From: Zootoca vivipara
Lineage: Eukaryota
Length of the DNA: 64,000 nucleotides
NCBI RefSeq assembly: GCF_963506605.1
Contig: NC_083277.1
Coordinates: 102,176,001-102,240,000, forward strand
Direction of reading: 5' to 3'
Position 1 is the first letter of the stretch, and each line of letters begins with the position of its first letter. Below, piece by piece: positions 47,811 to 64,000 of this stretch. A model generated the notes under the pieces. That model made no database searches. It was not told the DNA's origin and was given only the letters and a program-made list of their open reading frames with translations. The translations under genes were made by a program, and so were the position numbers.

Positions 47811-48268
47811 TAATTATGTCTCTAGCATAGTAAGAAGAAAAAACAAGGACCCGAGTCACTATTACTATTTAAATAAGATTTCTTTAGATTTTCATATCCT
47901 TGTAGCTGGCTCTACCTGATCTTGCAGCGACTCCATATGCCTAAGACCTACTTCAAAGACTCCCTCAAATGTCTTGGGCCATGGCTCCTGCTTAAAATAA
48001 AAATGACAACCTTGCGGCTGGTTCTCATCTCCCCGTTTGTAACACCTTATGCAACTAACTTGTCTCATCCTGATGTCAAGATGCAGCAACCCTTGCCAGT
48101 CTCTGATGCAGAGATGGAGATGCACAATTGGGTCACAGGTAAGTGATGCCCGACATGATGGAGGGGGCGAACCAGACGTGTTGCCATTTTGAGTGGCCGC
48201 CACTCAAGTGTGACTGCTTCCAGCACTGGATTGAGGTGACTTTTGCAGAGAGCAGTAATTGCTTAAGG

Positions 48269-48405
48269 CAGGCATCCCCAAACCTCAGCCCTCCAGATGT
48301 TTTAGACTACAATTCCCATCATCCCTGACCCCCTGGTCCTCTTATCTAGGGATCATGGGAGTTGTAGGCCAAAACATCTGGAGGGCCGCAGTTTGGAGAT
48401 GCCTG
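48269..48405. mobile_element. Palindromic hAT MITE (family of 7148)
   Basis: TIRs CAGGCATC...GATGCCTG; TSD GCTTAAGG. Confidence 0.92.
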
Positions 48406-49199
48406 GCTTAAGGCGTTAAACGCCACCGATGCTGAGATGAAATGTCCCCGTTTACAACAAAAAAGCAATAAGGCTACAGTCTTGTAGGTGCGAGGTTCCC
48501 CTAGAAAGTTGCATATACACTGCTCTTTAACAGGATAGCATGTGCATCCCCAGAGGAGCTCCAAGTACACCTGCAGAAAGTTTTTGGGTTTTTTTTGCAG
48601 GGAGAGATGCATGTTGGGGTGGGCCTTGGATCCAGAAGCCCCTTTTTTGACCAAAGCACTAAGAACTACACCAGCCTTCAAGGTGGCATATAGTCCATTT
48701 TCCCTCAAACATTTCCCCCCATGAATGTTTCTGTGTCCTACCTACTCCACCCCAATAGGATTGCTCTGGTTTAAACAAAATACGGTTATTTACTTGATCG
48801 TTTCCTTACAATATTTATAATAAGAACAAATTCTCTGGGCATTTTACAGTCAAAGTCGAAAGTAGAAAAAACCAGCAACATACAAATAAACGTGCAGCAG
48901 AACAAAACAAAATTATAAACAAGGGCTAACAATAGTGCCAAAGTTGTAAAAAGCAGGTCTAAAATTAGGGATCCTGGCTTGTGTGCATAAAGACTTAGAG
49001 CCATGTTAGAAATCTAGTTTGATTATAAAAGGAACAGCGGGTGGAAGCTGCCCCAAACAGCACCGATTCAAAATATTTACATACCACCTTTCAACCCAAA
49101 ATTATCAGAATGGTTTATGATGTAACAAAGCATCTTAGTTCTAAAGTTTTCCCTGCTATTCTGACCTTGAGTCTTGTTGGCTTCACTTCCCGTATCAGC

Positions 49200-49498
49200 T
49201 CAGCATCTGTGGGATGAGTTGGAATAAGCCAACTGGCACCGGCAGACCAAATGCAGTGGGTTGCAGCAGGGTATCACAGCTGGGTCGTGAGAGTAGTCTG
49301 CTGTAGAGATATTATCTGCTGCAATATTCCAAAGAATGTCCAGGAGAGCCTTGTTCGCCACTGGCAGAACAGTACGGTACTCGGCTGTCTCAATGTCCAG
49401 TGGTGCCTCCTCCTGGGTGTCATGCTGTAAGTTAAAAATGAGAGGTGGCTGATGGCAGCGTTCTTTCCCAATGCTCCCATCACAGGCCTTGGCACCAC
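49200..49498 (-). CDS. ARSG: ARSG last coding exon (GGAKACDGSIGKERCHQPPLIFNLQHD...DPAVIPCCNPLHLVCRCQLAYSNSSHRC*)
   Basis: Minus-strand acceptor tttccag|; matches the arylsulfatase G C-terminus (GGARACDG..PLIFNL..DPSVTPCCNP..CRC); synteny with WIPI1. Confidence 0.95.
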
Positions 49499-51234
49499 CT
49501 GGAAACAGATGAGGCATGCAAGATGTTAGGACTGCCATCTTTTACAAGGTATTCCTGTTGCAGAAGCCATGCCGTTAAAAGGAAAAACACCCAAAGTTCA
49601 TTAGTGTAGGTTAAGCATGATACAATCTAGCCCAACGGTAAGCATTTTTACCAGTTGATTTTGTGGAGGGGGACTAAGCGCAGGCCCATTACAAGAATGG
49701 ACCGGTTGCAGGTGGTCCAATGTCTGAAATATGTATCTGTGAAATGTTTGCAGTTGGGTGCTTCTCTGATTATTATTTAAATGCAAAACTTGGAAGTATG
49801 GAAGACATTCCTTGGAAATAATGCAAGATAGGTTCAGGAGGACTCGATACCAGCATCACATGATGACGACGTTGGTTTCCCACTTTAAAATTTTGTGAAA
49901 TGCCATGAGAAATGGAATTCTGCTGTTACACAAAATAGTACAGTCATCAATGAAAAACAGGAACATCAAGCAGAGGAATAGCCAAGGCGAGCAAGGGTGA
50001 GCTCCTACGTTCAACCCTTTGACAAGGACTTGTTTACTCTACTGGCCTTGCTGGACCAAAGAAAATGCCCATCTAGTCCAGCATCTTCTATCTCACAGTG
50101 GTCAGCTGGATGCGTACAGGAATTCCACAAGCAGAACCTGAGAGCAACCACAATCTCCCCACTGCAGACTCCCTGCAACTGGTATTTTAAAGGGATGTCT
50201 CTTAACAGTGGAGGTAGAACACCATCATTGTGGTAATCTTACATCTGGGTCGCACCACTTGTTCTCCAGCTCCCAGCTCTGGCTAGCACTCGAGGCAATG
50301 CCTGTTATTTATATATTTGGGCATCACCTGTGCCAGATCCTCTAGCCCCCAAAATAAAAAGGCAATTTAAAAATACCTAAGTACAAGGACACCTCATCTA
50401 AAACATCCTGCTCATTAACCACAGCTATACAGACCAAAACTTCCCCATACAAAAACGCAGGTGGCAACATCAACGGACCACATTAAAGCCATCGGGGAGA
50501 AGGAGATAGTTGGTGCAACCCTTAAGAAGGTGCCCCTGTTGAAACCAATTAGCTCATTGGCTTCTTTCGCTTCACCATGCGAGGGGTTTGGTTCCTGCCC
50601 ACACCATAGAGGAAGCAAACCTTGGGGTACACGGACTGTCCTTATGAACAGGAGGCAAACCTGCCCTCGCTAGCTGGGAAGAGCAGGAGCACAAAATGTT
50701 CTGACCACACAAGCATGCACTTCTATTTGCCTGGTAATAATTAGCCCTGGCGAGAGAGCAAGAGCATCCTAACGAGCCAGTAAACTAATTTAACAGTTGT
50801 CTACATCCCTTAAGGACAGGTTCCCTGCACCACGATGTTGCACTCTGCTGTTTTGCACTTTGCACTCAAGGCCAAGTATAGCCTGGACTTGGGAGGCCTC
50901 TTTAGACCGGTCCGATTGTTTGGCATGCCCACCAGTTCTTTCAGGAACCCCTTCCTCCTCTAGCCTCAGCCTCAACGTCCCTCACCTTTCATTCTTAAGT
51001 AACCTCTTCCCTTAGGAAACCCTATCTTGGAGAGGACTTTGTGGGTGCAACCTAGTAGTGACTGGTTCAGTGAGGCATCACATGCCTTGGGGGGAGCAGC
51101 TGTAGCTCAGGGTGGAGGTGGAGAGATCAGCAGTACTGAGCTAGGTGGACAGGTTCTGACCAAGTATAAAAGCAGCTTCCTAAGTGATTGAAACCATGCA
51201 TTATGGACCTTGATTACATTGTTTTAGTGGAGGG

Positions 51235-51595
51235 TAGGGCTGGGCAATAATCTGGCTTTCAACATAACGATATATCAACAGCTAGGCATCATGATACCAA
51301 TATATCACGATGTCTGAAATACATAGCTGCCAAGTTTTCCCTTTTCTCACGAGGAAGCCTATTCAGCATAATGGAATTTCCCTTAAAAAAAGGGAGAACT
51401 TGGCAGCTATGCTGAAATAGCACTATGTAGAGGCACTGGGTGGCTTCCGTTTTCCCAGCCTCATGATTTTTGCTAAGCACACCCCCACCCCATCCATATC
51501 ATGACGTACGATATATTGCTAGGTTAAAAAATTATGAAACCGGTATCACGACATGAACTTCAAATGTGTTTTGGACAATATATCGCCCAGCCCTA
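51235..51595. mobile_element. hAT-like MITE with TAGGGCTGGGC/GCCCAGCCCTA ends and GATAT subrepeats; relatives at ~45903 and ~61410-61698
   Basis: Terminal inverted repeats visible. Confidence 0.65.
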
Positions 51596-51907
51596 ACACA
51601 CATAACAATTTGCGATATAATTGCCAGGTCAAAAGGAATGAAATGGATAACATGATACGGACTTCAAACCAGTTTTGAACAATGTATGGATATATTACTC
51701 AGCCCTATTAGGGGGGTGGAGATAAAATGCACCCAGATTTTAACTGGGTGGCAGTGTGGAGAAAAGGGGTTTTTCTCTTTTTTTGTGAAAAATAAATAAA
51801 AATTATTGGGGGGGGGAGAAAGAAAGAAGGGAATAACTAACTACTGATCTGATAAAAGGGCTCTTCCCATCTTTCACAACTGAGCAATCACATCAGTGGA
51901 AGCTAAG

Positions 51908-51957
<50 letters not shown>

Positions 51958-53723
51958 CTTGCAGGACTACATCGGGCAAGAAGTCTCTGGGGAGAACCAC
52001 AACGGAGGAAGGGAGGAGAGGGACACATATTACGTGCAGTGACAGCCCATACTGCTTGCCAGAGGCGATAAGAAGGCAGCCCGTTGGTAATTATAGCTCA
52101 AGAAGCCTGAGTCGCAGCTGCCTCTGTAGGTCTGGCCCATGCTTGACCCCATTCCAGAATGCTGGCTTGAAGGCCCAGGAAGGGTTAGCAAGGCATCACA
52201 CCAGTGTCTATTTTCATTTTGCTAGAAAAAGATACCAAGGAACACGCAGATATAAAAATAGCTGCAAGGTGGCATGAAAGCTGAAAAGGTAGCTCTTGAA
52301 GAGCAATGCAAACGGGTGCCAGCATCTTGAGGGCAGTGCTACTCTTGCTGGTGACGGGCACACTTTTCTAATTAGGAAAGGGGGGAAAGAACACTGGGCC
52401 CTTCTCTCCGGTACTTGTGGGGAGGAAGAATGGAAGTGAGAAGGCTTTTGAAAGCAGCAAGAGTGGTCTGTAAGCTACTAAAGTCAAGGCTGGAGAGAGG
52501 AGGGAAGAAGTGGGGGGAGCGGGAAATGGGTACCCCACAAAACTGCCCAGTGGCTTCATCCGCACTGCAGAGAGAAGTGCATTCTGGTATAGCAGAATGC
52601 AGGTGGGCTAAGATTTGGTCTCTAGGAATATTGCCTTTCCTCTCCCCCCCCCTTTTTTAAAGTGCTCCCTCTTAGCTATCATACCTGCACAAATGCACAC
52701 TGTATTTTGGCAAAGTGGGAAACTGAGGCAACTGGTCCTGCTGCTACTACCACGTTCTGCTTGGCCAGGCTCTCTGCCTCCTCCTTTTCCTTCCTCCCTA
52801 ATTCCCCATCCTCAGAAGGACCGAGAAATTGTGGGCAGGGTGTGTAGCTGCTGCCGCTAAATGATTTTTAAATTTAGGCAGCATTTTTAGTCGCTGCAGC
52901 AAACTACAGGCACGTTCCCAGCCCACCCAGAAAGCTTTGCTCTGCTAGTCCGATGCAGAGAAGCACCAGCCTGGAAAGATAAACAGAGAGTCTGGGGACT
53001 CAACCAACTGCAGGGGCTCTTCACCCCCTTCAAAATCTTCTTGGATCTCCTGGTGTTCCTAAGCAAACCTAGGGGATACAACAGCCACCACTTGCACGCT
53101 AGAAGATCTGAGTGGATTTCAGTTGGCTGGCTGTTCTGTTCACCCAGGCAGATTCCACTCAGATGTCACGCAGTACCACAGCAGACCACAAAACCCCCCA
53201 CCCGCCAAGACATTTCTGCTCATTTGGCTCATTTGCCACCTGCAGGCCTAAATTCTCATTCTCTGTGTGGGTGTCTATCTTTACAAAACTAGGGCTGCCA
53301 TATGGCCAGATTTTCCCAGACACGCCTGGGAATCTGGCAGCATTTTGGCATCCAGGCGGATTTTCCCAAAATCAGCAAAATGTCTGGGGAAACCTGGACG
53401 TATGGCCGGGGGGGGTGTACTTTTATTTTTTAATCCCCCCCCCAAAATTGAAAAAAGCCCCCCAACTGTTTTTTTGGGGGGGGGATGTTCCCCAAAAAAG
53501 CTGAACAGATTTTCAGTTTTGGGAACCCGAACGAAACAGAATGATTAAAAATAATCTATTCAGCTTGGGGGGTGGGTTTCGTTTTTGGTGGAGTGAAGGG
53601 GGATGGATAACTGTCTTAGAGATGCAGCTAAATATTTGATTTGGTTCTGGGGGAAGGTAACTGGTTTTATTCAGAAATGCGTCAGAAGGGGAGAGGGAAC
53701 ATCCCACCTAACAAGCAACATAC

Positions 53724-53814
53724 CTGTGAGATAAAATGCCTTGTACTGGTCCACCCGAAGAGCTTGTATTTCTCCATATTTTCCTGCTGCCCCACTGTTG
53801 GGATGGAACAACGT
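53724..53814 (-). CDS. ARSG: ARSG penultimate coding exon ([30 protein letters not shown])
   Basis: ccctag| acceptor, |gtatgt donor, 91 nt; [15 protein letters not shown] motif; phase matches the last exon. No further ARSG exon was recognised up to 64000. Confidence 0.95.
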
Positions 53815-54197
53815 CTAGGGGAAAGAAAGCGCCAGACGCTTAGAAAGTTGTCCCATTTTAATGGACTACTGAATGGTTTAGTTTATATAAAAATATGCAG
53901 GGATTTATGCTATGCAAAATGAACCATGGAAAGAGAAGAAGGGAAGTCATTGGTATTTTAAGGTTGTACCTGTATAAATGAATATTCTAAATTGTAGAAC
54001 AGAAAATTTAATAAAAATTATAAAAAAGACAGCTCTTTTAACTTCGTAAAGCTTAGGAAATGCATGAATTCAACAGCATGAAAAAAGACACATTTGTTCC
54101 TCAAAATAGCAGCTATGCATATAGCACACTTCTGTATTTCCTGATAACACTGAGGATGAAACTGTGTGTGCTGTTTAAATGCGTATTTGCATTTAAC

Positions 54198-54249
<52 letters not shown>

Positions 54250-55263
54250 AGCATCTGCTGAGCAAGTGGGCCTAACTGAAAATGTGCTTTGAAAGAGGGA
54301 TAGTTGTGTTTAGTCTACACTCTGGTAATCAGGTTTCGTAGTGCATTGTGTTTCAAACCTGCGAGCTAGAGCAGTAGTGAGACAATGGGAAGCCATGCTT
54401 CTGTCAAATATATCCAGCTCTCCTAAGTTGTTTTCCTGTACTCTCAGAGAAGGCGCACACACCACACAGGAATTAGTTCTGGGTGGCTGTGTCTAAGGAT
54501 TAAATATTACCGGTACTGTTGGTCTCAGTGTCAGTGCAAACCTTGAAGTGCCACTTACGGAAATCAGGCAGGTTTACTCTGACTGTCATTCTGGGCTACT
54601 GAAATGAAACTCCCCCCCCCCCCAAGTCTCTCTTGATGAAAGCCGACCAAGCAGGATCCGGTATTTAGTGTCTATCTTATTGGAGTGACAGCTTTGTAAT
54701 GCTCAATACAAGCACGAGTCAATACAAGACAGCCATGAATTTGTCTCTGCAGAATACAAATCCTTGATTCTCAATGACTTAATGAACAACAACAAAAAAG
54801 GGGGGGTCTCCTTTTCCCTTTCGCAGAGGTGTGACCCAAGTCATTCATACATTTCTCCTCCCATGCGAAAACCGGTTTGGTGACTACACTTAACTCAAGT
54901 TTCTCTTTTGATCCCTCCTGGGCACTTAATCCCCCTGGGTCTCAATTTCCCACATGTACAATGACCGTAACAGCATTCCTAGTGCTCCACAAGACTTTAG
55001 TATGGAAAATAAATACATTCACATGGCCGTTTCATACACTAATGAATGGGAGCCATGTGCTACATTCAAAGCATTGGGGGGGGGGATCTTGGGCAATAAG
55101 TAAGAACTGCAGGAACAAATTTATCCACATGACTTAAGTCCATGGTTCTCCTTACCCAACACAGGTTGGGAATAAGTTTGCAATTATGTGGGTTTTTTTT
55201 TTTGTCATGTTGCAAGCCCCCTTTAGCATGGTTTGAACAATGGAAAGGCAGCATACAATAAAA

Positions 55264-55310
55264 GTATGTATGTATGTATGTATGTATGTATGTATGTATG
55301 TATGTATGTA
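55264..55310. repeat. (GTAT)n microsatellite
   Basis: Directly visible. Other SSRs: (TG)n at ~51910, ~54199, ~61374; (AAT)n at ~60675; (GA)n at ~25400. Confidence 0.95.
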
Positions 55311-56199
55311 TTGCTACACGACACCCCTGTCTCCAGGCGGCATGAGATTCCCACGCTACCAAGCATCCTTGTGTTTCACTTTGGACAATTTGGCACAGCA
55401 GAGACTGTGGTGTCTTTAGGATCTATGGTTTGCACAACCTGAAGCCTCCTATGGAGGAAGCTCACATCAATATTCCAAGAGGTTTCTGTCCCTTTCCTAC
55501 GCACAGCACTGCTTGCAAGAACAGACATCAGCATCTCTCTCTAGCACAGTTGCTTAGTCCCAGCCAGCCTCCTTCCCATGGACATCCTAAAACTCTAAAC
55601 TGCAACCCACGTTGCTTCTTAATGCCAAAGTGCTATTCTAAACTCTGCCCTCAAAGCACTGGGATCGCCAGGCGAAGGAAGGAGGAAACCCTCACCTTTG
55701 CAAATGAGAGGTGCCCTTTCACCCCTTTGTTGTTGCCTAAATAGCTCATCCTAACACCTCTCAAGGAAATTATTTGAGTTCATCAGCTTTTACACTTGTC
55801 TTAATTAGAGGATAAACAAAGTCTGGCAGAGGCTTAAATAAACACTACACTGGCTTGAATACACATGTGAGTCTAGCTCAGGGTGGTTCAACACACAGCC
55901 TGGGGGTTGCAGATGCTTGAAGCCCCCACAACAGCCCTGGAGCTAGGCAAGTGAGGTGCTGGGCTTTGGGAAAGGGGTGTGAGGGCTGGGGGCCATCAAA
56001 TTGTAGCCTCAAACTCCCTGCCCCCCCCATGCAACAAGGCAGTGTGTGGCCCACAGGTTCAGTGTCAAAGTAGCCTTGTGGCAGAGTTATGAAAATTTGG
56101 ACCACCCTGATTTCCCGGTTCTAACACCCAAGCCTTAATTAAATTCTGGCACTAATTTGATCTGGAAAAACAGCACTGCTGGTGCATATGGTTGTAGAA

Positions 56200-56303
56200 T
56201 AAGGTTACCAGATTTTTTTCCAATGAATCCAGGGACACTTTTCAACTTCAATGGATTTTGTATGGGGACTGATTTGTAAATCTGGGGACGTCTGGTAACC
56301 TTA
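56200..56303. mobile_element. Short hAT MITE
   Basis: TAAGGTTACCAGA...TCTGGTAACCTTA TIRs; TSD TTGTAGAA/GTGTAGAA. Confidence 0.8.
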
Positions 56304-56788
56304 GTGTAGAAGCTCTGTTAACATCTGTTAACGGGGGAAGAGTGCCATTTTGAATGAGGGATGTGGTTAACGCTTTACACTGCACCTCCTAATTTGTCCT
56401 GTCTGTGTCCTGCGGTACCACGAGGATGACAACAAGACAAGCTATCCCCTCCTGCCGCAACGCCGTTCTGTCTAGTGGCTCCAACATCAGAGAGCCTAGG
56501 CTGGGTCAGCTGCTGAAGCAGAGGGGCTTGCACAATGGCTGTGCCTGTGAAGCATAAACTGGCTTTCTGCTCAGTTTCCTGGAACAGCAGCGCAGCTCTC
56601 CTCTGCTGACTCAGTGTGGCACATTCAGCTTCCTCTCTGGAGCTGGGATTCCCACATTACAGCAACAAGGGATGGGAGCAGAGAGTCAGCAGCTCATGTA
56701 AGAAGTCCAAGCTTCTCAGTTTCCTGGCCACACACAAGAGATACTCCTCTTCAGGTAAAAGGAAAATATAAAGGCTCACTGTCAAATG

Positions 56789-57012
56789 CAGTGGTACCTG
56801 AGGTTACAGACGCTTCAGGTTACAGACTCCACTAACCCAGAAATAGTACCTCGGGTTAAGAACTTTGCTTCAGGATGAGAACAGAAATCATGAGGTGGCG
56901 GCATGGCGGCAGTGGGAGGCCCCATTAGCTAAAGTGGTACCTCAGGTTAAGAACAGTTTCAGGTTAAGAACGGACCTCCAGTGAATTAAGTTCTTAACCT
57001 GAGGTACCACTG
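56789..57012. mobile_element. Tigger-like Tc1/mariner MITE
   Basis: CAGTGGTACCT ... AGGTACCACTG|TA with internal ggttaagaac repeats; a truncated left end of a related type is at ~29252. Confidence 0.8.
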
Positions 57013-58187
57013 TATCCATTTGGAACAGCAATCTCACCACAAGGGGAAGGTAAAAAGGACATTTGCCATTAATTCTTGTTCTATAGGCTTCTCAGAGGGT
57101 ACTGTGATTTATTCATCTTTGGGATGCATCAGAGCACTGCCACTCCCTGCCATGGGTGCCCAACATCGTCAAGACCCCCCCCCCAAGATACCTTGTACTA
57201 CTTTTGCGCCAAGGTGGTCTGGTGTGCTGGGGCAGTGTTGTGGAGCCACTCTCCTGGCCCTGCTTACCAAGGGAGGGGTGGGGCAGGGTAGGAGCAAGGT
57301 TGGGGTGCGTGGGCAGCCATGTGGCACTCCCAAGTGTGCCTGCACAGCCCCACCCTCACCACTGCCCTGTCCTCATAAGTGGCAGCGATGTCAGAGTTCT
57401 AGGAGAGCAGCAAAGCCCCACCATGTCAGCTGCATGGAGCGTGCTGCCCCAGAGTGGGGAAGGGAGCACGCCCTGACTCTTCTTCCCGGACACTCAGCCT
57501 GAGGTGCCCTCCAAAATCTGGCACCCTGGTGCCCCGCCCCGCGCCACTAATGCCTATGGTTAAGACGCCCCTGCCCCTCAGAGTCAATTGTGGGGGGAGG
57601 CCTGCCCCATTGCAACGGCAGATGTCCTTCTGCAGGCTGCTCTCTTATTAGGTGAGTCCCACTCAATTTCACACAACACACACTCCTGCTTAAATCTGCA
57701 TCCAGTAGGCTCTCAGCACCGGTTTGGGAAGCGGTGTGCACACGCTGGCCACAATCCATACTTTCCCTATCCTGACGTTTCTTACAAAATACGATGTTTT
57801 CTCCCAAACTAGCTTCAATCCAAATATAGAAAAGGGATGACCTAGCTGTGTTTCAAGCAGGTAATGTGTACACAGCCTTCCTGGAACTGCTGTGTGCTGT
57901 GCCGTATTTCCTTTGTTTCATCATGCCTGCTACCCGCTCAGAGCAGCTTTTCACAATGCAATGCGTTTGTTGCCCAACAGCTGTCATTACTCATTCCTTA
58001 CCCAGCTTTAATTGGCCACGGAACTGGAGGCAGGAAATTGTTACCAAGGTGTGTTGGTTTAGGGTTTAGAGAAAAGAGCTGGGAGTTCTGGCTTTCTCTT
58101 TTTGTGCTCATCCAGCTGCAGGCATGCTCAGGGCTTGGCTGGTGTTGCAGCACCAAGTCAGAAGTAGCCTAGATTTGGGGATAGGCT

Positions 58188-58680
58188 CAGGGCCGTCTTA
58201 AGTGTATCGGGCGCCGTGGCACGATGATCCCTCCGGCGCCCCTCACGCTCCACCAGGCAAGGCAAGGCGCAGCCGGCAGCCAGAGAGCGCGGTGCAACAG
58301 GCAGAGACGCTGCCAGCTGTGGTCCGCCTCCGCCTGCTCGGCCGAAGCGGCAGAGTAGCGCTGCAGTCCAGGGAGCTCTAGCTGCTGCCCCGACAGGTTT
58401 GCTCTGTGGCACCTCATGTGCATGCCTGGCCACACTCCTTCAAGTCACAGCGAGCACAGACAACACTGCGCTGCCTGTGCTCACTGTGACTTGAAGGAGT
58501 GTGGGTGGAAGGTAGCCCAGTTCCGCTGCCGCCGTCTCGCTTCACCCACCGCTGCCGGAAAAGGAGTGAAGCGGGCGAGGCAGAGGTGCGGGCGGCTCAG
58601 TGTGTCTCCTTGATGTGCCCCCTTCTGGGCGGGCGCCCTTGTGCACCGCACCAGTCAGCCCAATGGGAAGGACGGCCCTG
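58188..58680. mobile_element. GC-rich hAT non-autonomous element
   Basis: CAGGGCCGTC...GACGGCCCTG TIRs; perfect 8-bp TSD GATAGGCT. Confidence 0.9.
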
Positions 58681-59639
58681 GATAGGCTCCACCTTGGATT
58701 CTTTGAAATGGCCTCTGATCTAAACAGGTAAGCAAGTCTCGCACGCTGCTCGGGGCCGTCAACCAAGCTGAGGGATAAAGAAAGGCAGCCGCCTTCATCA
58801 CACCATATTTTGCTATTCTAAAATGTTATTTGTCACAGAGAAGAGGTAACTATACTTAACAAGAGGTCTTTCTAAGAACATCGTTTTGCATGCATGCTTT
58901 TAAGAAGACTGCCTTGGCTGCCAGCAACTGACTTCCCCCCCAAAGGGTTCTGTGCCTGGATAAGCAAATAGATAGGCTGAACTTAAGAACATTCCTTCCC
59001 CCAAGCTGGTCTTTGGGGCATCCAGAGTTATTTAATTCTCTATGGGTAGCAGTTTTGAAGGAAGCACCCTTCCGACATGACAGGAGGTTCTTAGGCTATT
59101 TTAAACATCTGAAACATGTCAAGGGAAAGGGTAACAAGAAACACAGCTAGATTTGGTTTTGCTAAATACATGACTGCATCTAATACTGTACAGAAGGGAG
59201 AAAATCACAATTATCTCCCCACCCTCCCTGCCCAGCCATGTAGAGGTACAGCTAAACTCAAATCATCCATCAGTGGGAGACTCCCTTGCGAGAAACTGTC
59301 AGCTCTCCTAAATTGTTCTGGAATTAACCGATATTTTATTGGTCTTCGGATTTGAAGGTTTGGGTTTTTTTTATCATAGCAGTCCTCTACAGCTTCAGAG
59401 AACTGCTTGTTTTTCAGGTCTGCTGTGAAACTGCTGCTCCAAATCTCCAGCTGGCACATGTAGCTAAAAAACAAATGCCTCCTTGTAACTGTGGGAAGTT
59501 AGGAAAAGTGCCCTGGAATTTGGAGACACCGAAGCTAAAGAGCAGGTTTTTCTGCTCAGCACAGAATCTAAGTGGAAAGCTTCCTTCGTTTCATCAGGTC
59601 GTCCACTGGCTTCTCTCTTCTTAGCCAGAGACCTGATGG

Positions 59640-59726
59640 TAAAAAAAATCCTTCCAGTAGCACCTTAGAGACCAACTAAGTTTGTCATAGGTATGAGCTT
59701 TCGTGTGCATGCACACTTCTTCAGAT
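59640..59726 (-). mobile_element. Short Penelope-like retroelement terminal (pLTR) fragment
   Basis: Minus strand: ATCTGAAGAAGTGTGCATGCACACGAAAGCTCATACC...TTAGTTGGTCTCTAAGGTGCTACTGGAAGGATTTTTTTT; flanked by 14-bp direct repeat CAGAGACCTGATGG (59626-59639, 59727-59740). Confidence 0.85.
59691..59726 (-). ncRNA. Minimal type-I hammerhead ribozyme motif
   Basis: CUGAAGA-A-[GUGUG CAUG CACAC]-GAAA-GCUC-AUAC: conserved core, 5-bp stem II, palindromic AGCU helix III, CUC cleavage triplet. Confidence 0.75.
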
Positions 59727-60674
59727 CAGAGACCTGATGGGTACAAGATGCTCAATATTTCGTACTGGGTGTGGGGTCTGTGCATGTGTTACTCTCAATG
59801 AGCATCAAGGGATATCAAACATCATAACCATCTTCAACAACATGTCTTTCTGTAGCCTCCTCGCATAGCAACAAAAAGCTACTGAAGCACTAGATAGGAA
59901 GAGGAATGGATATTAGACCCCTGTCTGAGCAGCCCCAGGGCAACTGCGGCAGCCCCAGGAAGATGAAGAATACCATCTTTCCCCAGTTGCTCAAAAGGCT
60001 TCATATCCATGTTGTTAAGGAGGATACATACCGTACTTTTCTGTGTATAAGACTAGGGGGTTTTTTATTACAAAATAATGTTTAAAATTGGGGGTCGTCG
60101 TATACACAGTTATATCCTCCCCCATTTTCTTAACTTGGAGTCCCCCAAAATTGGGGGCGTCTTATACACAGAGGCATCTTATACACAGAAAAATACGGTA
60201 CATGCAACAACGAAAGAGAAGTCATTATGAGTTTTTACCATAGACGTCCAGTTCAGATGTAGCAGGAAACCACTGAGTTTGGTATACGACTATAATAATG
60301 GGTGGTTATATCATTTTTGCCACTGAAGTGTTCACTCTTGAACCTCTGCCATCTCATTCTATCCCTGGAGGCTGGAATATCTGAATTTGTTGGGTTAAAA
60401 CAAAAACAGACCAATGCTTTCAAAAACAGACCAATGTCTCTCAAGTGGTCATTGACTGCCCAAATGTGAAACCATTGTAATGAATAATGTCCCCAAAGTG
60501 GACACACTGCCCTTGGGATAATTATCCAGAATTTATGCCTAGCTGAAAATATTCTTGGGGGCCAAACACTGATATTATAATCCAAGTGAAAGTAAATCTG
60601 AAAAGCTCCAATGAACAGCCGAGTATGAACATGTCAATGCAGTGAAGGGATGTTCTGCCATTTTGATGTAAGGC

Positions 60675-60723
<49 letters not shown>

Positions 60724-61371
60724 TAATCTGAAAAATAAAGGCAAGCATTTTCTCTCAGATATTCATATTGTCCAAGCAGCTTCAATATCTAGTGTTTACA
60801 TGGCCTATTTACTTCCCTCTCCTGCTCTGGCTGATGCCATTGTGGTCTCCAGCCCTGGGAAGGAACCCTCCAGAAATCTTTTCAAGTAGAAATACTTGGA
60901 ACAAATTCTGACAGATGCTTACATTCATAGGGGCCTGGAACTAGGCTCCCTCCACTTGTGCTAATCACCTCCTGGAAATGTTGTTGCCAAGAGCCTTTTA
61001 GGATTCAGATCTAGGAATGCAAATTTGTCCCGGGCCTTTTAACAGGCCACAACTTGTCTGGAAAATAAGAGTTCTGGGGAAGGGAAGGGATAGGAGGGCA
61101 AAGGTGGAATTTAAAATAAAATCAATGCAGCTTTTAATAGTGTCTGTTTTTTAAAAAAATGTATATTTTATCCTGCAATGAAAAAGTAATAAATAATCTA
61201 ATTTCCAAGAAAGGCTCCAAGTCAGATGTTGTTCCTCAAGGAAAGGAGGTTCACTGAAATAAAACATCTTATTTTTCATCTAAGTTGTCTTCTTTTCCTA
61301 AAAACCTTAACTCCTCTTCTGTACTCCAACCATCTCTGCCACTCCAACCATCTCTGACAAGGCCTTCCACC

Positions 61372-61414
<43 letters not shown>

Positions 61415-61440
61415 TGATATCTCGAGATATCGAGATATTT

Positions 61441-61640
61441 GTTGTTGTTGTTGTTTAGTCGTTTAATCATGTCCGACTCTTTGTGACCCCATGGACCAGA
61501 GCACGCCAGACACTCCTGTCTTCCACTGCCTCCCGCAGTTTGGTCAGACTCATGTTCGTAGCTGCAAGAACACTGTCCAACCATCTCATCCTCTGTCGTC
61601 CCCTTCTCCTTGTGCCCTCCATCTTTCCCAACTTCAGGGT
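61441..61640 (-). mobile_element. Bov-B (RTE LINE) 3' end
   Basis: Translates to LKLGKMEGTRRRGRQRMRWLDSV...MSLTKLREAVEDRSVWRALVHGVTKSRT*LND*; (CAA)n tail; TSD GATATTT. Confidence 0.92.
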
Positions 61641-61988
61641 GATATTTAGCTGGTGATATATCGCGATATTGAAAAAAATCAGATATCACCCAGCCCTAGC
61701 AGCAACAAGTCTCACTGTGTTTTGTGAGGCTTGTTCCTTAGCAAATGTGTTTAGGAGAGAAGCCTTAGAAGAGGAGAATCTCTTGTGTGTCACAGGGTAT
61801 CCTGCATCATCAAGTGGAGAGTTGCCATTGCCAGCTCTCAAATGCAATACAGAAAGGGTGCGCATACCGGTATGCCCACTTCACTAAGTGACCAGCCTGA
61901 TGAAACACCACAACATGCCACCATCTCTACGGAACGGGTGCATCAAGAGAGTGCTACCGAAAAGAACGAGATGGACAGGAATAAATAA

Positions 61989-62125
61989 CAGGCTTCCTCA
62001 ACCTCGGTCCTCCGGATGTTTTGAGACTACAATTCCCATCACCCCAGACCACTGGTCCTGCTAGCTAGGGATCATGAGAGTTGTAGGCCAAAAACACCTG
62101 GAGGGATCGAGGTTGAGGAAGCCTG
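61989..62125. mobile_element. Palindromic hAT MITE variant
   Basis: CAGGCTTCCTCAACCTCG...CGAGGTTGAGGAAGCCTG; ATAAATAA near both ends. Confidence 0.85.
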
Positions 62126-62783
62126 AGATAAAATAACAGGTGTTTTGCCTGTGTTGGGGGACTGGATTATAGAGGACCTTCAACTCTAATCATTGCATGG
62201 AATGGCAGCTTCAGTTGCATATGGAGGAATTCAGTGTTGCGCTCTTCCAATTGTTCCATCAGCTTGCCCGAGTGAATGCTCCTCTCTCCGTGCAAGGTTC
62301 TGGGGGGTTCACCAGAGCTCCCAGAGCCCATTTGGTGGGGGACGTGGGGTCATGAGAAGGCGGGTGTGTGTCATTGGAAATCTCAATGGGACTTAATCAA
62401 TCACTTCCTTTTGAGGACACATGCAGAGGATTGAACTACAACATGACTGGTTTCAATAAATAGGTCACATTTTCAAATAATCATAGCATCTATGGCAAAC
62501 AAAAGAGATCACTGATTGTGCAATGGACCAGGGTAGTAGCAATAATAGCACACCAGATGTATGAATAGCACATGCTGATTGCCTGCATAAACAGAATAAA
62601 ACCAGCAAGGTTGATACAGAATGATCTGGCCAATTGTGCACATGTGGCTCGACACGTATTGGTGCTTTTGAAGTAAACATCAGCCAGCTTAATTCTAACC
62701 AAGGAACTCAATCATGTTGCACAAATCACGCAGAGATCTCATTACCAGCATGCATCATCTGCAAGGCTTGAGAGGTAAAAAAC

Positions 62784-63156
62784 GTAAAAGGTAAAGGACC
62801 CCTGGACGGTTAAGTCCAGTCAAAGGTGACTATGGGGCCATGGCGCACAATCTTGCTTTCAGGTTGAAGGAGCCGCCGTTTATCCACAGACAGCTTTCTG
62901 GGTCATGTGGCCAGCATGACTAAACTGCTTCTGGTGCAACGGGACACTGTGACAAAAACCAGAATGCACGGAAACGCCATTTACCTTCCCACTGCAGCGG
63001 TACCTATTTATCTACTTGCCCTGGTGTGCTTTCAAACTGCTAGGTTGGCAGAAGCTGGGACAGAGCAACGGGAGCTCACTCCGTTGCAGGGATTTGAACC
63101 ACCGACCTTCTGATCAGCAAGCACAAGAGGCTCAGCGGTTTAGACACAGCACCACC
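62784..63156 (-). mobile_element. Sauria SINE, near full length
   Basis: aaaggtaaagg tail, SINE body and tRNA head in reverse. Confidence 0.88.
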
Positions 63157-63485
63157 AATTAGGGCAACCAACATGTTCTGCAAGCCACGTTGAAAGTAGA
63201 AAAACAATCGTCTCTACTGCAAATGAATGAGTGGATTTTCCCTGTCTCGTGTGTGACAGAAATGGGAAGGGGAAACTGACAAAGGCACTGATGTTAAGTA
63301 TCAAGAGAAAATGAAATTTCAACAGTGGAGTCTGTCGACTTAGCGAAAATGGCGCCCTTCAGATGTTCTTGGACTCTTGCCCCAGCCAATATGGCCAATG
63401 CTGAGGGATGGTGGGATTGTAGTTAGGCAATAGGTATGTGGATGATACACCCTGGAGTAGAGGGACACAAAAGTTCACACTAGAC

Positions 63486-63621
63486 CAGGCACCCCCAAAC
63501 TTCAGCCCTCCAGATGTTTTGGCCTACAACTCCCATGATCCCTAGCTAACAGGACCAGTGGTCAGGGCTGATGGGGATTGTAGTCCAAAACATCTGGAGG
63601 GCCGAAGTTTGGGGATGCCTG
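63486..63621. mobile_element. Palindromic hAT MITE (family of 7148)
   Basis: TIRs CAGGCA..CCCAAACTTC / GAAGTTTGGGGATGCCTG; TSD CACTAGAC. Confidence 0.92.
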
Positions 63622-64000
63622 CACTAGACTGTAATCAGCAAGTGATTTACAGCACTATCCTATGCATATCTTCTCAGAAGTAAGTCCCGTTGAATTCAAG
63701 GGGATTTACTGTAATTGCCACTATCATTTGCACCAATAGACACAGTGTGGCCATTGGAGGTGTGGCTGGCATTGGCACTGCAATGCTTTGGGCATCAAGT
63801 TATGCTAATAAAAGGTTAAAATGGCTAAATGTTTTAAAAAATATGCTTTTTTAAAAAAATACTCAAGCATAATATTATAATCGTTATGCTGTCAGTCTGC
63901 TCTGGTTTTTCAAACTGGTCCAAACCTTTTTTTTTTTTTTACAATGTGGTTGTATTTTATCTTGATATGATTGGTTTAGTCGTGCCCACTGGTATCCATA

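What the first reader, a model, noticed from the sequence alone, without database searches (positions are those of the whole stretch)
59626..59740. Hammerhead ribozyme core in a tiny Penelope-type insertion, sense within the ARSG pre-mRNA
Seen: an 87-bp insert with a perfect 14-bp TSD. On the minus (ARSG-sense) strand it reads AU-CUGAAGA-A-GUGUG-CAUG-CACAC-GAAA-GCUC-AUAC, which is the full hammerhead core with stem II, a loop-less palindromic helix III (AGCU) and a CUC cleavage triplet. Known: Penelope-like elements carry minimal type-I hammerheads that cleave mainly as dimers. Inference: the insert's 5' end lies only 2 nt upstream of CUGA, so stem I keeps just ~2 bp and cis-cleavage should be weak. 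It could still pair in trans with other copies, or be a short non-autonomous ribozyme-bearing mobile unit inside a host intron.
Basis: partly seen in the sequence, partly recalled or inferred. Interest (0 to 1): 0.75.

Follow-up and report, generated by a model that had tools for sequence, protein, structure and literature searches.

The report
Penelope retrotransposon stub with hammerhead motif
This 87-base insertion in a lizard gene's intron is one of more than 17,000 copies of a jumping gene's end carrying a known self-cutting RNA motif, predicted to be inactive here, and its sister copies show an extra G at one fixed start, likely because the copying enzyme ran off the capped, uncut front end of the element's RNA.

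Summary
Observation confirmed: an 87-bp insert with a 14-bp target duplication and a minimal type-I hammerhead core, sense in a 14.9-kb ARSG intron. It is not special. The core has 17,230 exact copies and belongs to the pLTR of a Penelope-like element with an intact RT/GIY-YIG ORF. Minimal PLE hammerheads are published. This copy keeps 2 of 4 stem-I pairs and is predicted to misfold. The separate mobile-unit and ARSG-regulation ideas have no support.

The family is more informative. 5' ends peak at the first base of stem I (+1), 31 nt behind a TATA-like box (54 of 55 motif-bearing copies). A non-genomic G precedes +1 (G:A 2,390:758, against 244:321 two bases further in). Only 65 subfamily copies break at the ribozyme cut. 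The likely explanation is that RT primes internally near the 5' end of capped, uncleaved RNA and runs off the cap.

The parts
59626..59639 (.). Target-site duplication, copy at the element's 3' end (14 bp)
   Evidence: TSDs of 9-14 bp in 5 of 18 non-inverted sister copies
59727..59740 (.). Target-site duplication, copy at the element's 5' end (14 bp); predicted to pair with the ribozyme's CUG in host RNA
59640..59726 (-). 87-bp stub of the pLTR of a Penelope-like element (Neptune/Nematis-type linker); starts at +3 of the inferred transcript and ends in the T-run before the optional ~40-nt tail
   Evidence: 91% identical (80 of 88) to the pLTR ends of an intact element; exact subfamily 37-mer in 2,654 copies
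59725..59726 (-). Remnant 5' strand of stem I (2 of 4 nt)
59695..59724 (-). Minimal type-I hammerhead core: CUGAAGA, extra A, stem II with a palindromic GUGUGCAUGCACAC, GAAA, AGCU helix-III palindrome (59699-59696), CUC triplet; predicted cut 59695/59694
   Evidence: architecture as in PMC4209133
59691..59694 (-). 3' strand of stem I (AUAC)
59640..59690 (-). pLTR 3' segment between the ribozyme and the inferred RT priming site
53722..53814 (-). ARSG exon downstream of the host intron (aa 409-439 of P0003); the upstream exon lies beyond the window at 68677-68802
49203..49499 (-). ARSG last coding exon (Sulfatase_C)

Best explanation
The insert is a short stub of the terminal repeat (pLTR) of a very abundant Penelope-like retrotransposon, carrying its known minimal hammerhead motif, predicted to be inactive in this ARSG intron, and likely made when the element's reverse transcriptase primed internally about 90 nt from the capped, uncleaved 5' end of the element's RNA and ran to within two bases of that end. 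Shown: family membership, copy number, TSD, the intact master ORF, the peak of 5' ends at the first base of stem I (+1), the TATA-like box at -31, the extra G only at +1, and no excess of ends at the ribozyme cut. Inferred: +1 is a Pol II start; the G is a copy of the m7G cap; priming is internal, as shown in vitro for the anole element; this copy lost +1/+2 during joining; the stub cannot move on its own and does not cut ARSG RNA. Further inference: cleavage at +34 would remove the cap and leader, so the ribozyme more likely acts on expression or turnover of the RNA than makes the template's end.
For:: 17,230 exact core copies, 0 for the reversed control; a 925-residue open frame with RVT_1, GIY-YIG, DKG, YIDD and a CX4CxxC linker starts right behind the same ribozyme segment; it has a 1,794-bp 100% inverted copy, so the family was recently active; of 90 tail-picked copies, 11 start at +1 (the mode), 67 start no more than 3 nt upstream of +1, and 3 start within 1 nt of the cut; of 55 ORF-joined copies with the landmark (75 examined), 9 start at +1/+2 and 2 within 1 nt of the cut; the TATA-like motif starts at -31 in 54 of the 55 copies that have it (109 examined, 54 lack it), across subfamilies with different spacers (references). 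G:A before +1 is 2,390:758, before +3 it is 244:321 (Fisher p 3e-51; about 1,800 excess G); 3 of 6 copies with an abutting TSD have a G absent from the target, 3 are ambiguous; 65 subfamily copies break at the cut (37 of them T, likely C-to-T changes), against 2,654 for a similar tail pattern; stem I probability 0.0 and C-U-G about 1% unpaired in host context. Literature: an extra G marks the cap in full-length L1 insertions (PMC11702581, one passage); internal RT starts and uncleaved RNA as template in vitro (PMC11167929).
Against: No cap or start site was observed directly: the RNA lays show no pile of molecule starts at +1, and those reads come mostly from stubs inside host transcripts. This copy belongs to the +3 class, which has no G excess, so its run-off origin rests on the family pattern. 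About half of the 90 sampled ends fall inside the ribozyme rather than at +1, which run-off alone does not explain. 9,614 core copies continue with the genomic T upstream of +1, so many templates or primings reach further. In 6 of 30 G-copies the G could come from an inverted arm, and a one-base fold-back on stem I gives the same letter. Only one control position was counted, and the C class at +1 was not counted. The one dissected Penelope promoter (D. virilis) is TATA-less and internal (PMC2377424). Even copies starting at +1 are predicted to favour other folds (stem I probability at most 0.04).
Confidence: 0.75

Rival explanations
1. Same family, but ordinary 5' truncation: RT stalls or switches template in the structured ribozyme region, and the extra G arises from a fold-back of the cDNA end on stem I or from microhomology with an inverted arm, with no capped end at +1.
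For: About half of the sampled ends are spread through the ribozyme. The base a fold-back would add first is the same G; 6 of 30 G-copies follow an inverted arm's TTCA, and 3 of 30 match a fold-back over 4-5 bases.
Against: A fold-back match of 2 or more bases occurs in 11 of 30, about what chance gives. Long fold-backs at stem I are no more common than the A class (14 and 14 of 65, counted from the list). The TATA-like box sits at exactly -31 in 54 of 55 copies. ORF-joined copies peak at the same base.
Confidence: 0.15
2. One reading: the stub is an independent non-autonomous, ribozyme-bearing mobile unit (retrozyme- or SINE-like) that copies itself from stub-length RNA or circles.
For: Stub-length copies are very numerous, and RNA reads over the +1-to-tail segment are abundant. 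Tandem arrays with a ribozyme in each unit exist in this genome (10 x 293 bp, 4 x 598 bp).
Against: This copy is a monomer without the upstream box. Ends vary from copy to copy, and the same tail type is joined to the ORF end. 52-89% of RNA reads laid on the element run on into unlike sequence. The anole element needs ORF sequence beyond the priming site (PMC11167929).
Confidence: 0.04
3. The intronic hammerhead cuts ARSG pre-mRNA, alone or paired in trans with another copy, and so tunes ARSG expression.
For: Sense orientation and an intact catalytic core. It is the only family copy between ARSG's last exon and 70 kb beyond the window.
Against: Stem I has 2 bp and the core is predicted to be sequestered. 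A monomeric min-HHR showed no cleavage and dimers only low cleavage (PMC4209133); the anole motif needed its protein (PMC11167929). The insert matches the subfamily majority, so it is young and shows no sign of selection. No pile of ends at the cut in run X21, though those reads come from other copies.
Confidence: 0.03
4. The ribozyme makes the template's 5' end (cleaved or circularised RNA is copied), or +1 is a splice acceptor as at the D. virilis helix I.
For: A cleavage-and-circle role is proposed, and the D. virilis intron end maps to helix I (PMC4209133). A few copies start near the cut. One subfamily has an AG two bases upstream of +1.
Against: At most 65 subfamily copies break at the cut, and the stub itself spans the cut. 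Two of three subfamilies lack the AG, and sequence upstream of +1 junctions is heterogeneous, not a shared exon.
Confidence: 0.03

Closest known systems
Minimal type-I hammerheads in pLTRs of metazoan PLEs (Xena, Poseidon, Neptune; PMC4209133, parts 1-2 of 4 read)
   Same: Core, extra nucleotide before stem II, G-C closing pair, short stem I, palindromic loop-less helix III, thousands of solo copies per genome, reported in turtle and snakes.
   Different: Here stem I is cut to 2 bp and one sequence dominates (229 of 246 descriptor hits in loci selected for this family). The paper does not map RNA starts.
PAc (Poseidon_Ac) of Anolis carolinensis (PMC11167929, parts 1-2 of 4 and passages read)
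   Same: Lizard EN+ PLE, pLTR hammerhead, two alternative 3' ends (with or without the tail), no RNA ends at the cut, uncleaved RNA as template.
   Different: This ORF has a CX4CxxC linker (Neptune/Nematis type), and its first ATG lies after the tail, not in stem II. No start site or cap-derived G is reported in the text read.
Pen2a_Av of Adineta vaga (PMC3846280, passages read)
   Same: pLTR with a putative TATA box and Inr, inverted 5' copies, optional tail, TSDs of 8-10 bp, solo pLTRs.
   Different: Low copy number; solo pLTRs there are ascribed to recombination or deletion, and the promoter was only predicted.
Full-length LINE-1 insertions with an extra 5' G (PMC11702581, one passage read)
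   Same: An extra G at the 5' junction, read as a copy of the cap.
   Different: L1 primes at the 3' poly(A) end; here cap run-off would give 90-130-bp stubs through internal priming.
Non-LTR retrozymes (10.64898/2026.07.22.740005, part 1 of 5 and passages read)
   Same: PLE-derived, non-coding, type-I hammerhead.
   Different: Defined as tandem units with at least two ribozymes; this is a monomer.

Membership tests
EN+ Penelope-like element (truncated copy) | Homology to the pLTR of an element with a single RT + C-terminal GIY-YIG ORF | tested here: met
EN+ Penelope-like element (truncated copy) | Tandem pLTR-ORF units, inverted 5' copies and an optional 30-40-bp tail in the family | tested here: met
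   3,030-bp tandem spacings; inversions and two 3' ends
EN+ Penelope-like element (truncated copy) | Target-site duplication at the insertion | tested here: met
   14-bp direct repeat abutting both ends; an empty allele was not seen
Neptune/Nematis-type PLE | CX2-5CxxC linker between RT and EN (absent in Penelope/Poseidon, PMC8557442) | tested here: met
   residues 785-793 of P0001
Neptune/Nematis-type PLE | RT phylogeny placing it in Neptune rather than Nematis | not tested
Minimal type-I hammerhead of PLEs | Conserved core, extra base before stem II, G10.1-C11.1, NUH triplet, palindromic helix III | tested here: met
Minimal type-I hammerhead of PLEs | Stem I of 4-5 bp | tested here: not met
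   2 bp in this copy; 4 bp in copies that reach +1
Minimal type-I hammerhead of PLEs | Covariation supporting the stems | tested here: inconclusive
   fetched loci hold one family with single changes only
Minimal type-I hammerhead of PLEs | Match to an Rfam hammerhead model | tested here: inconclusive
   no hit here and none for a full-stem copy
Minimal type-I hammerhead of PLEs | Self-cleavage as a dimer or with protein | not testable with these tools
   needs an in vitro assay
Non-LTR retrozyme | Tandem units with at least two ribozymes | tested here: not met
   single copy in the window; no such tandem array in 48000-64000
Non-LTR retrozyme | Circular RNA of unit length | not testable with these tools
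   short-read lays cannot show it

The most novel reading that the evidence does not exclude
Thousands of stubs in this genome record in vivo that a vertebrate Penelope-like RT copies the m7G cap of an uncleaved Pol II transcript that starts, under a TATA box, at the first base of hammerhead stem I. Internal priming near the cap yields strong-stop-like minis, and the ribozyme sits as a decapping switch 34 nt into the mRNA rather than making the template's end.
Probability: 0.6. Interest if true: 0.6.

Novelty: new member of a known kind. Interest (0 to 1): 0.35.

Why it matters
As a locus it is ordinary: one of tens of thousands of stubs, so an intronic hammerhead of this kind should not be read as gene regulation without evidence. 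The family statistics bear on two open points in PLE biology: what the RNA template's 5' end is, and what the hammerhead does. If the extra G is cap-derived, the start site can be read to the base from genomes alone. Integrated copies would then come from uncleaved RNA, matching the anole in vitro result, and cleavage would decap the mRNA. That gives direct tests: CAGE, and capped against uncapped templates.

Tried and rejected
DNA search of the own genome with the insert: no match, not even to itself, because common words are skipped; uninformative. Rfam: no hammerhead hit, but the control copy was also missed. Whole-insert folding is no better than shuffles (z +0.4 to +1.3). The energy of a constrained active dimer could not be evaluated. 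Run search: no RNA holder listed. Empty allele: not among the joints shown (266 rows hidden). One contig from sample S2 runs from the flank 8 bases into the insert, so it is probably present there too, and the run of organism B hardly covers the flanks. ARSG splicing was not visible; run X21 has almost no depth on the gene. No pile of molecule ends at the cut or at +1 in three RNA runs; two small piles (7 and 5 molecules) lie about 25 nt upstream of +1 in X21. These libraries are weak for ends. An upstream hairpin that would switch the ribozyme off in read-through RNA was predicted for only 1 of 3 subfamilies; dropped. A splice acceptor at +1 was rejected (AG not conserved). A genome-wide count of TATA spacing was not obtained; spacing rests on 109 fetched copies. 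Lunse et al. (PMC5785218) was not available; its dimer result is known to me only through a review (PMC6765202, passages).

Full report
Observation. The sequence shows a perfect 14-bp direct repeat at 59626-59639 and 59727-59740 around an 87-bp insert. A descriptor with stem II and triplet finds 1 hit in the window and none in each of 20 shuffles. The host gene is ARSG; its 11 coding exons lie on the minus strand, and the insert sits in a 14.9-kb intron, 5.8 kb from the downstream exon. Rfam finds no hammerhead here nor in a copy with full stem I.

What it is. The 34-base core occurs 17,230 times exactly in this 1.44-Gb genome, and the 37-base subfamily segment behind it 2,654 times. In locus L045 the same segment is followed by a 925-residue open frame with RVT_1 and GIY-YIG domains, and it recurs after the frame's end; the insert is 91% identical to those pLTR ends. 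The frame has a CX4CxxC linker, which PMC8557442 (passages) gives for Neptune and Nematis and not for Penelope/Poseidon. 290 pLTR-ORF junctions match exactly, some 3,030 bp apart. A 1,794-bp inverted copy is 100% identical, so the family moved recently. Sister stubs of 86-89 or 127-130 bp with TSDs of 9-14 bp were found in 5 of 18 non-inverted copies of this copy's start class (30 examined, 12 inverted). Minimal hammerheads in metazoan pLTRs, mostly as dispersed single motifs, are described in PMC4209133 (parts 1-2 of 4 read).

Is this copy active? Probably not (inference). It keeps 2 of 4 stem-I pairs. In host context the target sequence is predicted to pair with the first bases of the core (about 1% unpaired; stem I probability 0.0). 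PMC4209133 reports no cleavage for a monomer and low cleavage for dimers; PMC11167929 (parts 1-2 of 4 and passages) reports that the anole motif cuts only with its protein. Run X21 has almost no depth on ARSG and shows no pile of ends, so it cannot test this locus. A contig from another sample runs from the flank into the insert; no empty allele appeared among the joints shown.

Where family copies begin. I took 90 copies from the first 100 listed of the 2,654, picked by downstream sequence only (all on contig C1; both arms of fold-back insertions are included, so rows are not fully independent). Eleven start at the G that opens stem I (+1, the mode), 67 start no more than 3 nt upstream of it, 3 start within 1 nt of the ribozyme cut, and 17 reach more than 14 nt upstream. 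Among 75 ORF-joined copies from the first 100 listed of 290, 55 keep the landmark: 9 start at +1/+2, 2 within 1 nt of the cut, and 15 extend more than 30 nt upstream. A TATA-like motif begins at -31 in 54 of the 55 copies that have it (109 examined, 54 lack it); three subfamilies with different spacers keep that distance. Genome-wide, the base before +1 is G in 2,390, A in 758 and the genomic T in 9,614 copies (C not counted). Two bases further in it is G in 244 and A in 321. The excess is about 1,800 G (p 3e-51). In 30 G-copies, 6 have an abutting TSD: in 3 the G is not in the target, in 3 it could be. Fold-back matches of two or more bases (11 of 30) are about at chance, and 6 of 30 could take the G from an inverted arm. 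Only 65 subfamily copies break at the cut, 37 of them with a T that a C-to-T change would explain. Three RNA runs show deep, two-strand coverage of the +1-to-tail segment, mostly running on into unlike sequence, with no pile of ends at the cut or at +1.

Mechanism. Established elsewhere: the anole PLE starts reverse transcription inside its RNA, at two sites that define the tail; it needs ORF sequence beyond them and uses uncleaved RNA (PMC11167929). An extra 5' G marks the cap in full-length L1 insertions (PMC11702581, one passage). Inferred here: a Pol II transcript starts at +1 under the upstream box; priming at the 5' copy of the tail leaves only 90-130 nt to copy; RT runs off the cap, often adding a C; joining often trims or inverts the end. 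This stub starts at +3, a class without G excess, so it would be such a product trimmed by two bases. It lacks the upstream box and the ORF sequence, so it would be a dead end. Cleavage at +34 would remove the cap, so the ribozyme more likely limits expression or RNA life than makes the template's end; this last step is speculation. Against the model: no cap was seen directly, about half of the sampled ends lie inside the ribozyme, over half of core copies continue upstream of +1, one control position was counted, and the D. virilis promoter is TATA-less and internal (PMC2377424, passages).

Comparison and novelty. The stub is a new member of a known kind. It fails the retrozyme definition of tandem ribozyme units (10.64898/2026.07.22.740005, part 1 of 5 and passages; its supplements were not seen). 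Putative TATA/Inr motifs in a pLTR were predicted in a rotifer (PMC3846280, passages). Searches for a cap-derived G or a run-off origin of PLE stubs (listings) turned up no such report. The text supplements of PMC11167929 had no hit for these terms, but its supplementary figures and subscription papers, including Lunse et al., were not seen and may bear on this. Earlier AI notes of this scan proposed run-off from a fixed RNA start in other genomes; I had reached that reading before looking, and they are not independent support. A word search for the cap test found no note.

Verdict. Interest 0.35.

Noticed in passing
L206:1168-4097 (G000:C3, about 91.909-91.912 Mb): Array of 10 units of 293 bp, 100% identical where compared, each with the TATA-like box, a full-stem hammerhead, the tail and the ORF start: fits the tandem retrozyme definition and is a natural dimer substrate.
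   Followed up: partly
L033:3822-6213 (G000:C1, about 2.778 Mb): Array of 4 units of 598 bp (99.8% or more identical), each with a hammerhead, joining the ORF start to the ORF end.
   Followed up: partly
L045:3294-8222: Intact element with a 100% identical 1,794-bp inverted copy; the full-length unit begins 4 nt upstream of the ribozyme cut, at an inversion junction.
   Followed up: partly
window 59703-59716: Stem II with its loop is a perfect 14-nt palindrome; several fold-back insertions have their inversion centre in it (5 ends at that position), and two RNAs could pair through it.
   Followed up: partly
window 58425-58509: Strong hairpin with weak matches to miRNA models, far below their gathering scores; it lies in a repeat-depth bin and is probably a small repeat.
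   Followed up: no
L156:900-1190: RNA depth over the ORF's 3' end reaches several hundred in run X23 while the ORF's 5' end has depth under 15 in all three RNA runs, as expected from many 5'-truncated copies.
   Followed up: no
window 51322-51411, 56830-57015, 53890 and 60150 regions: Other very high-copy short repeats in the same ARSG introns; not identified.
   Followed up: no
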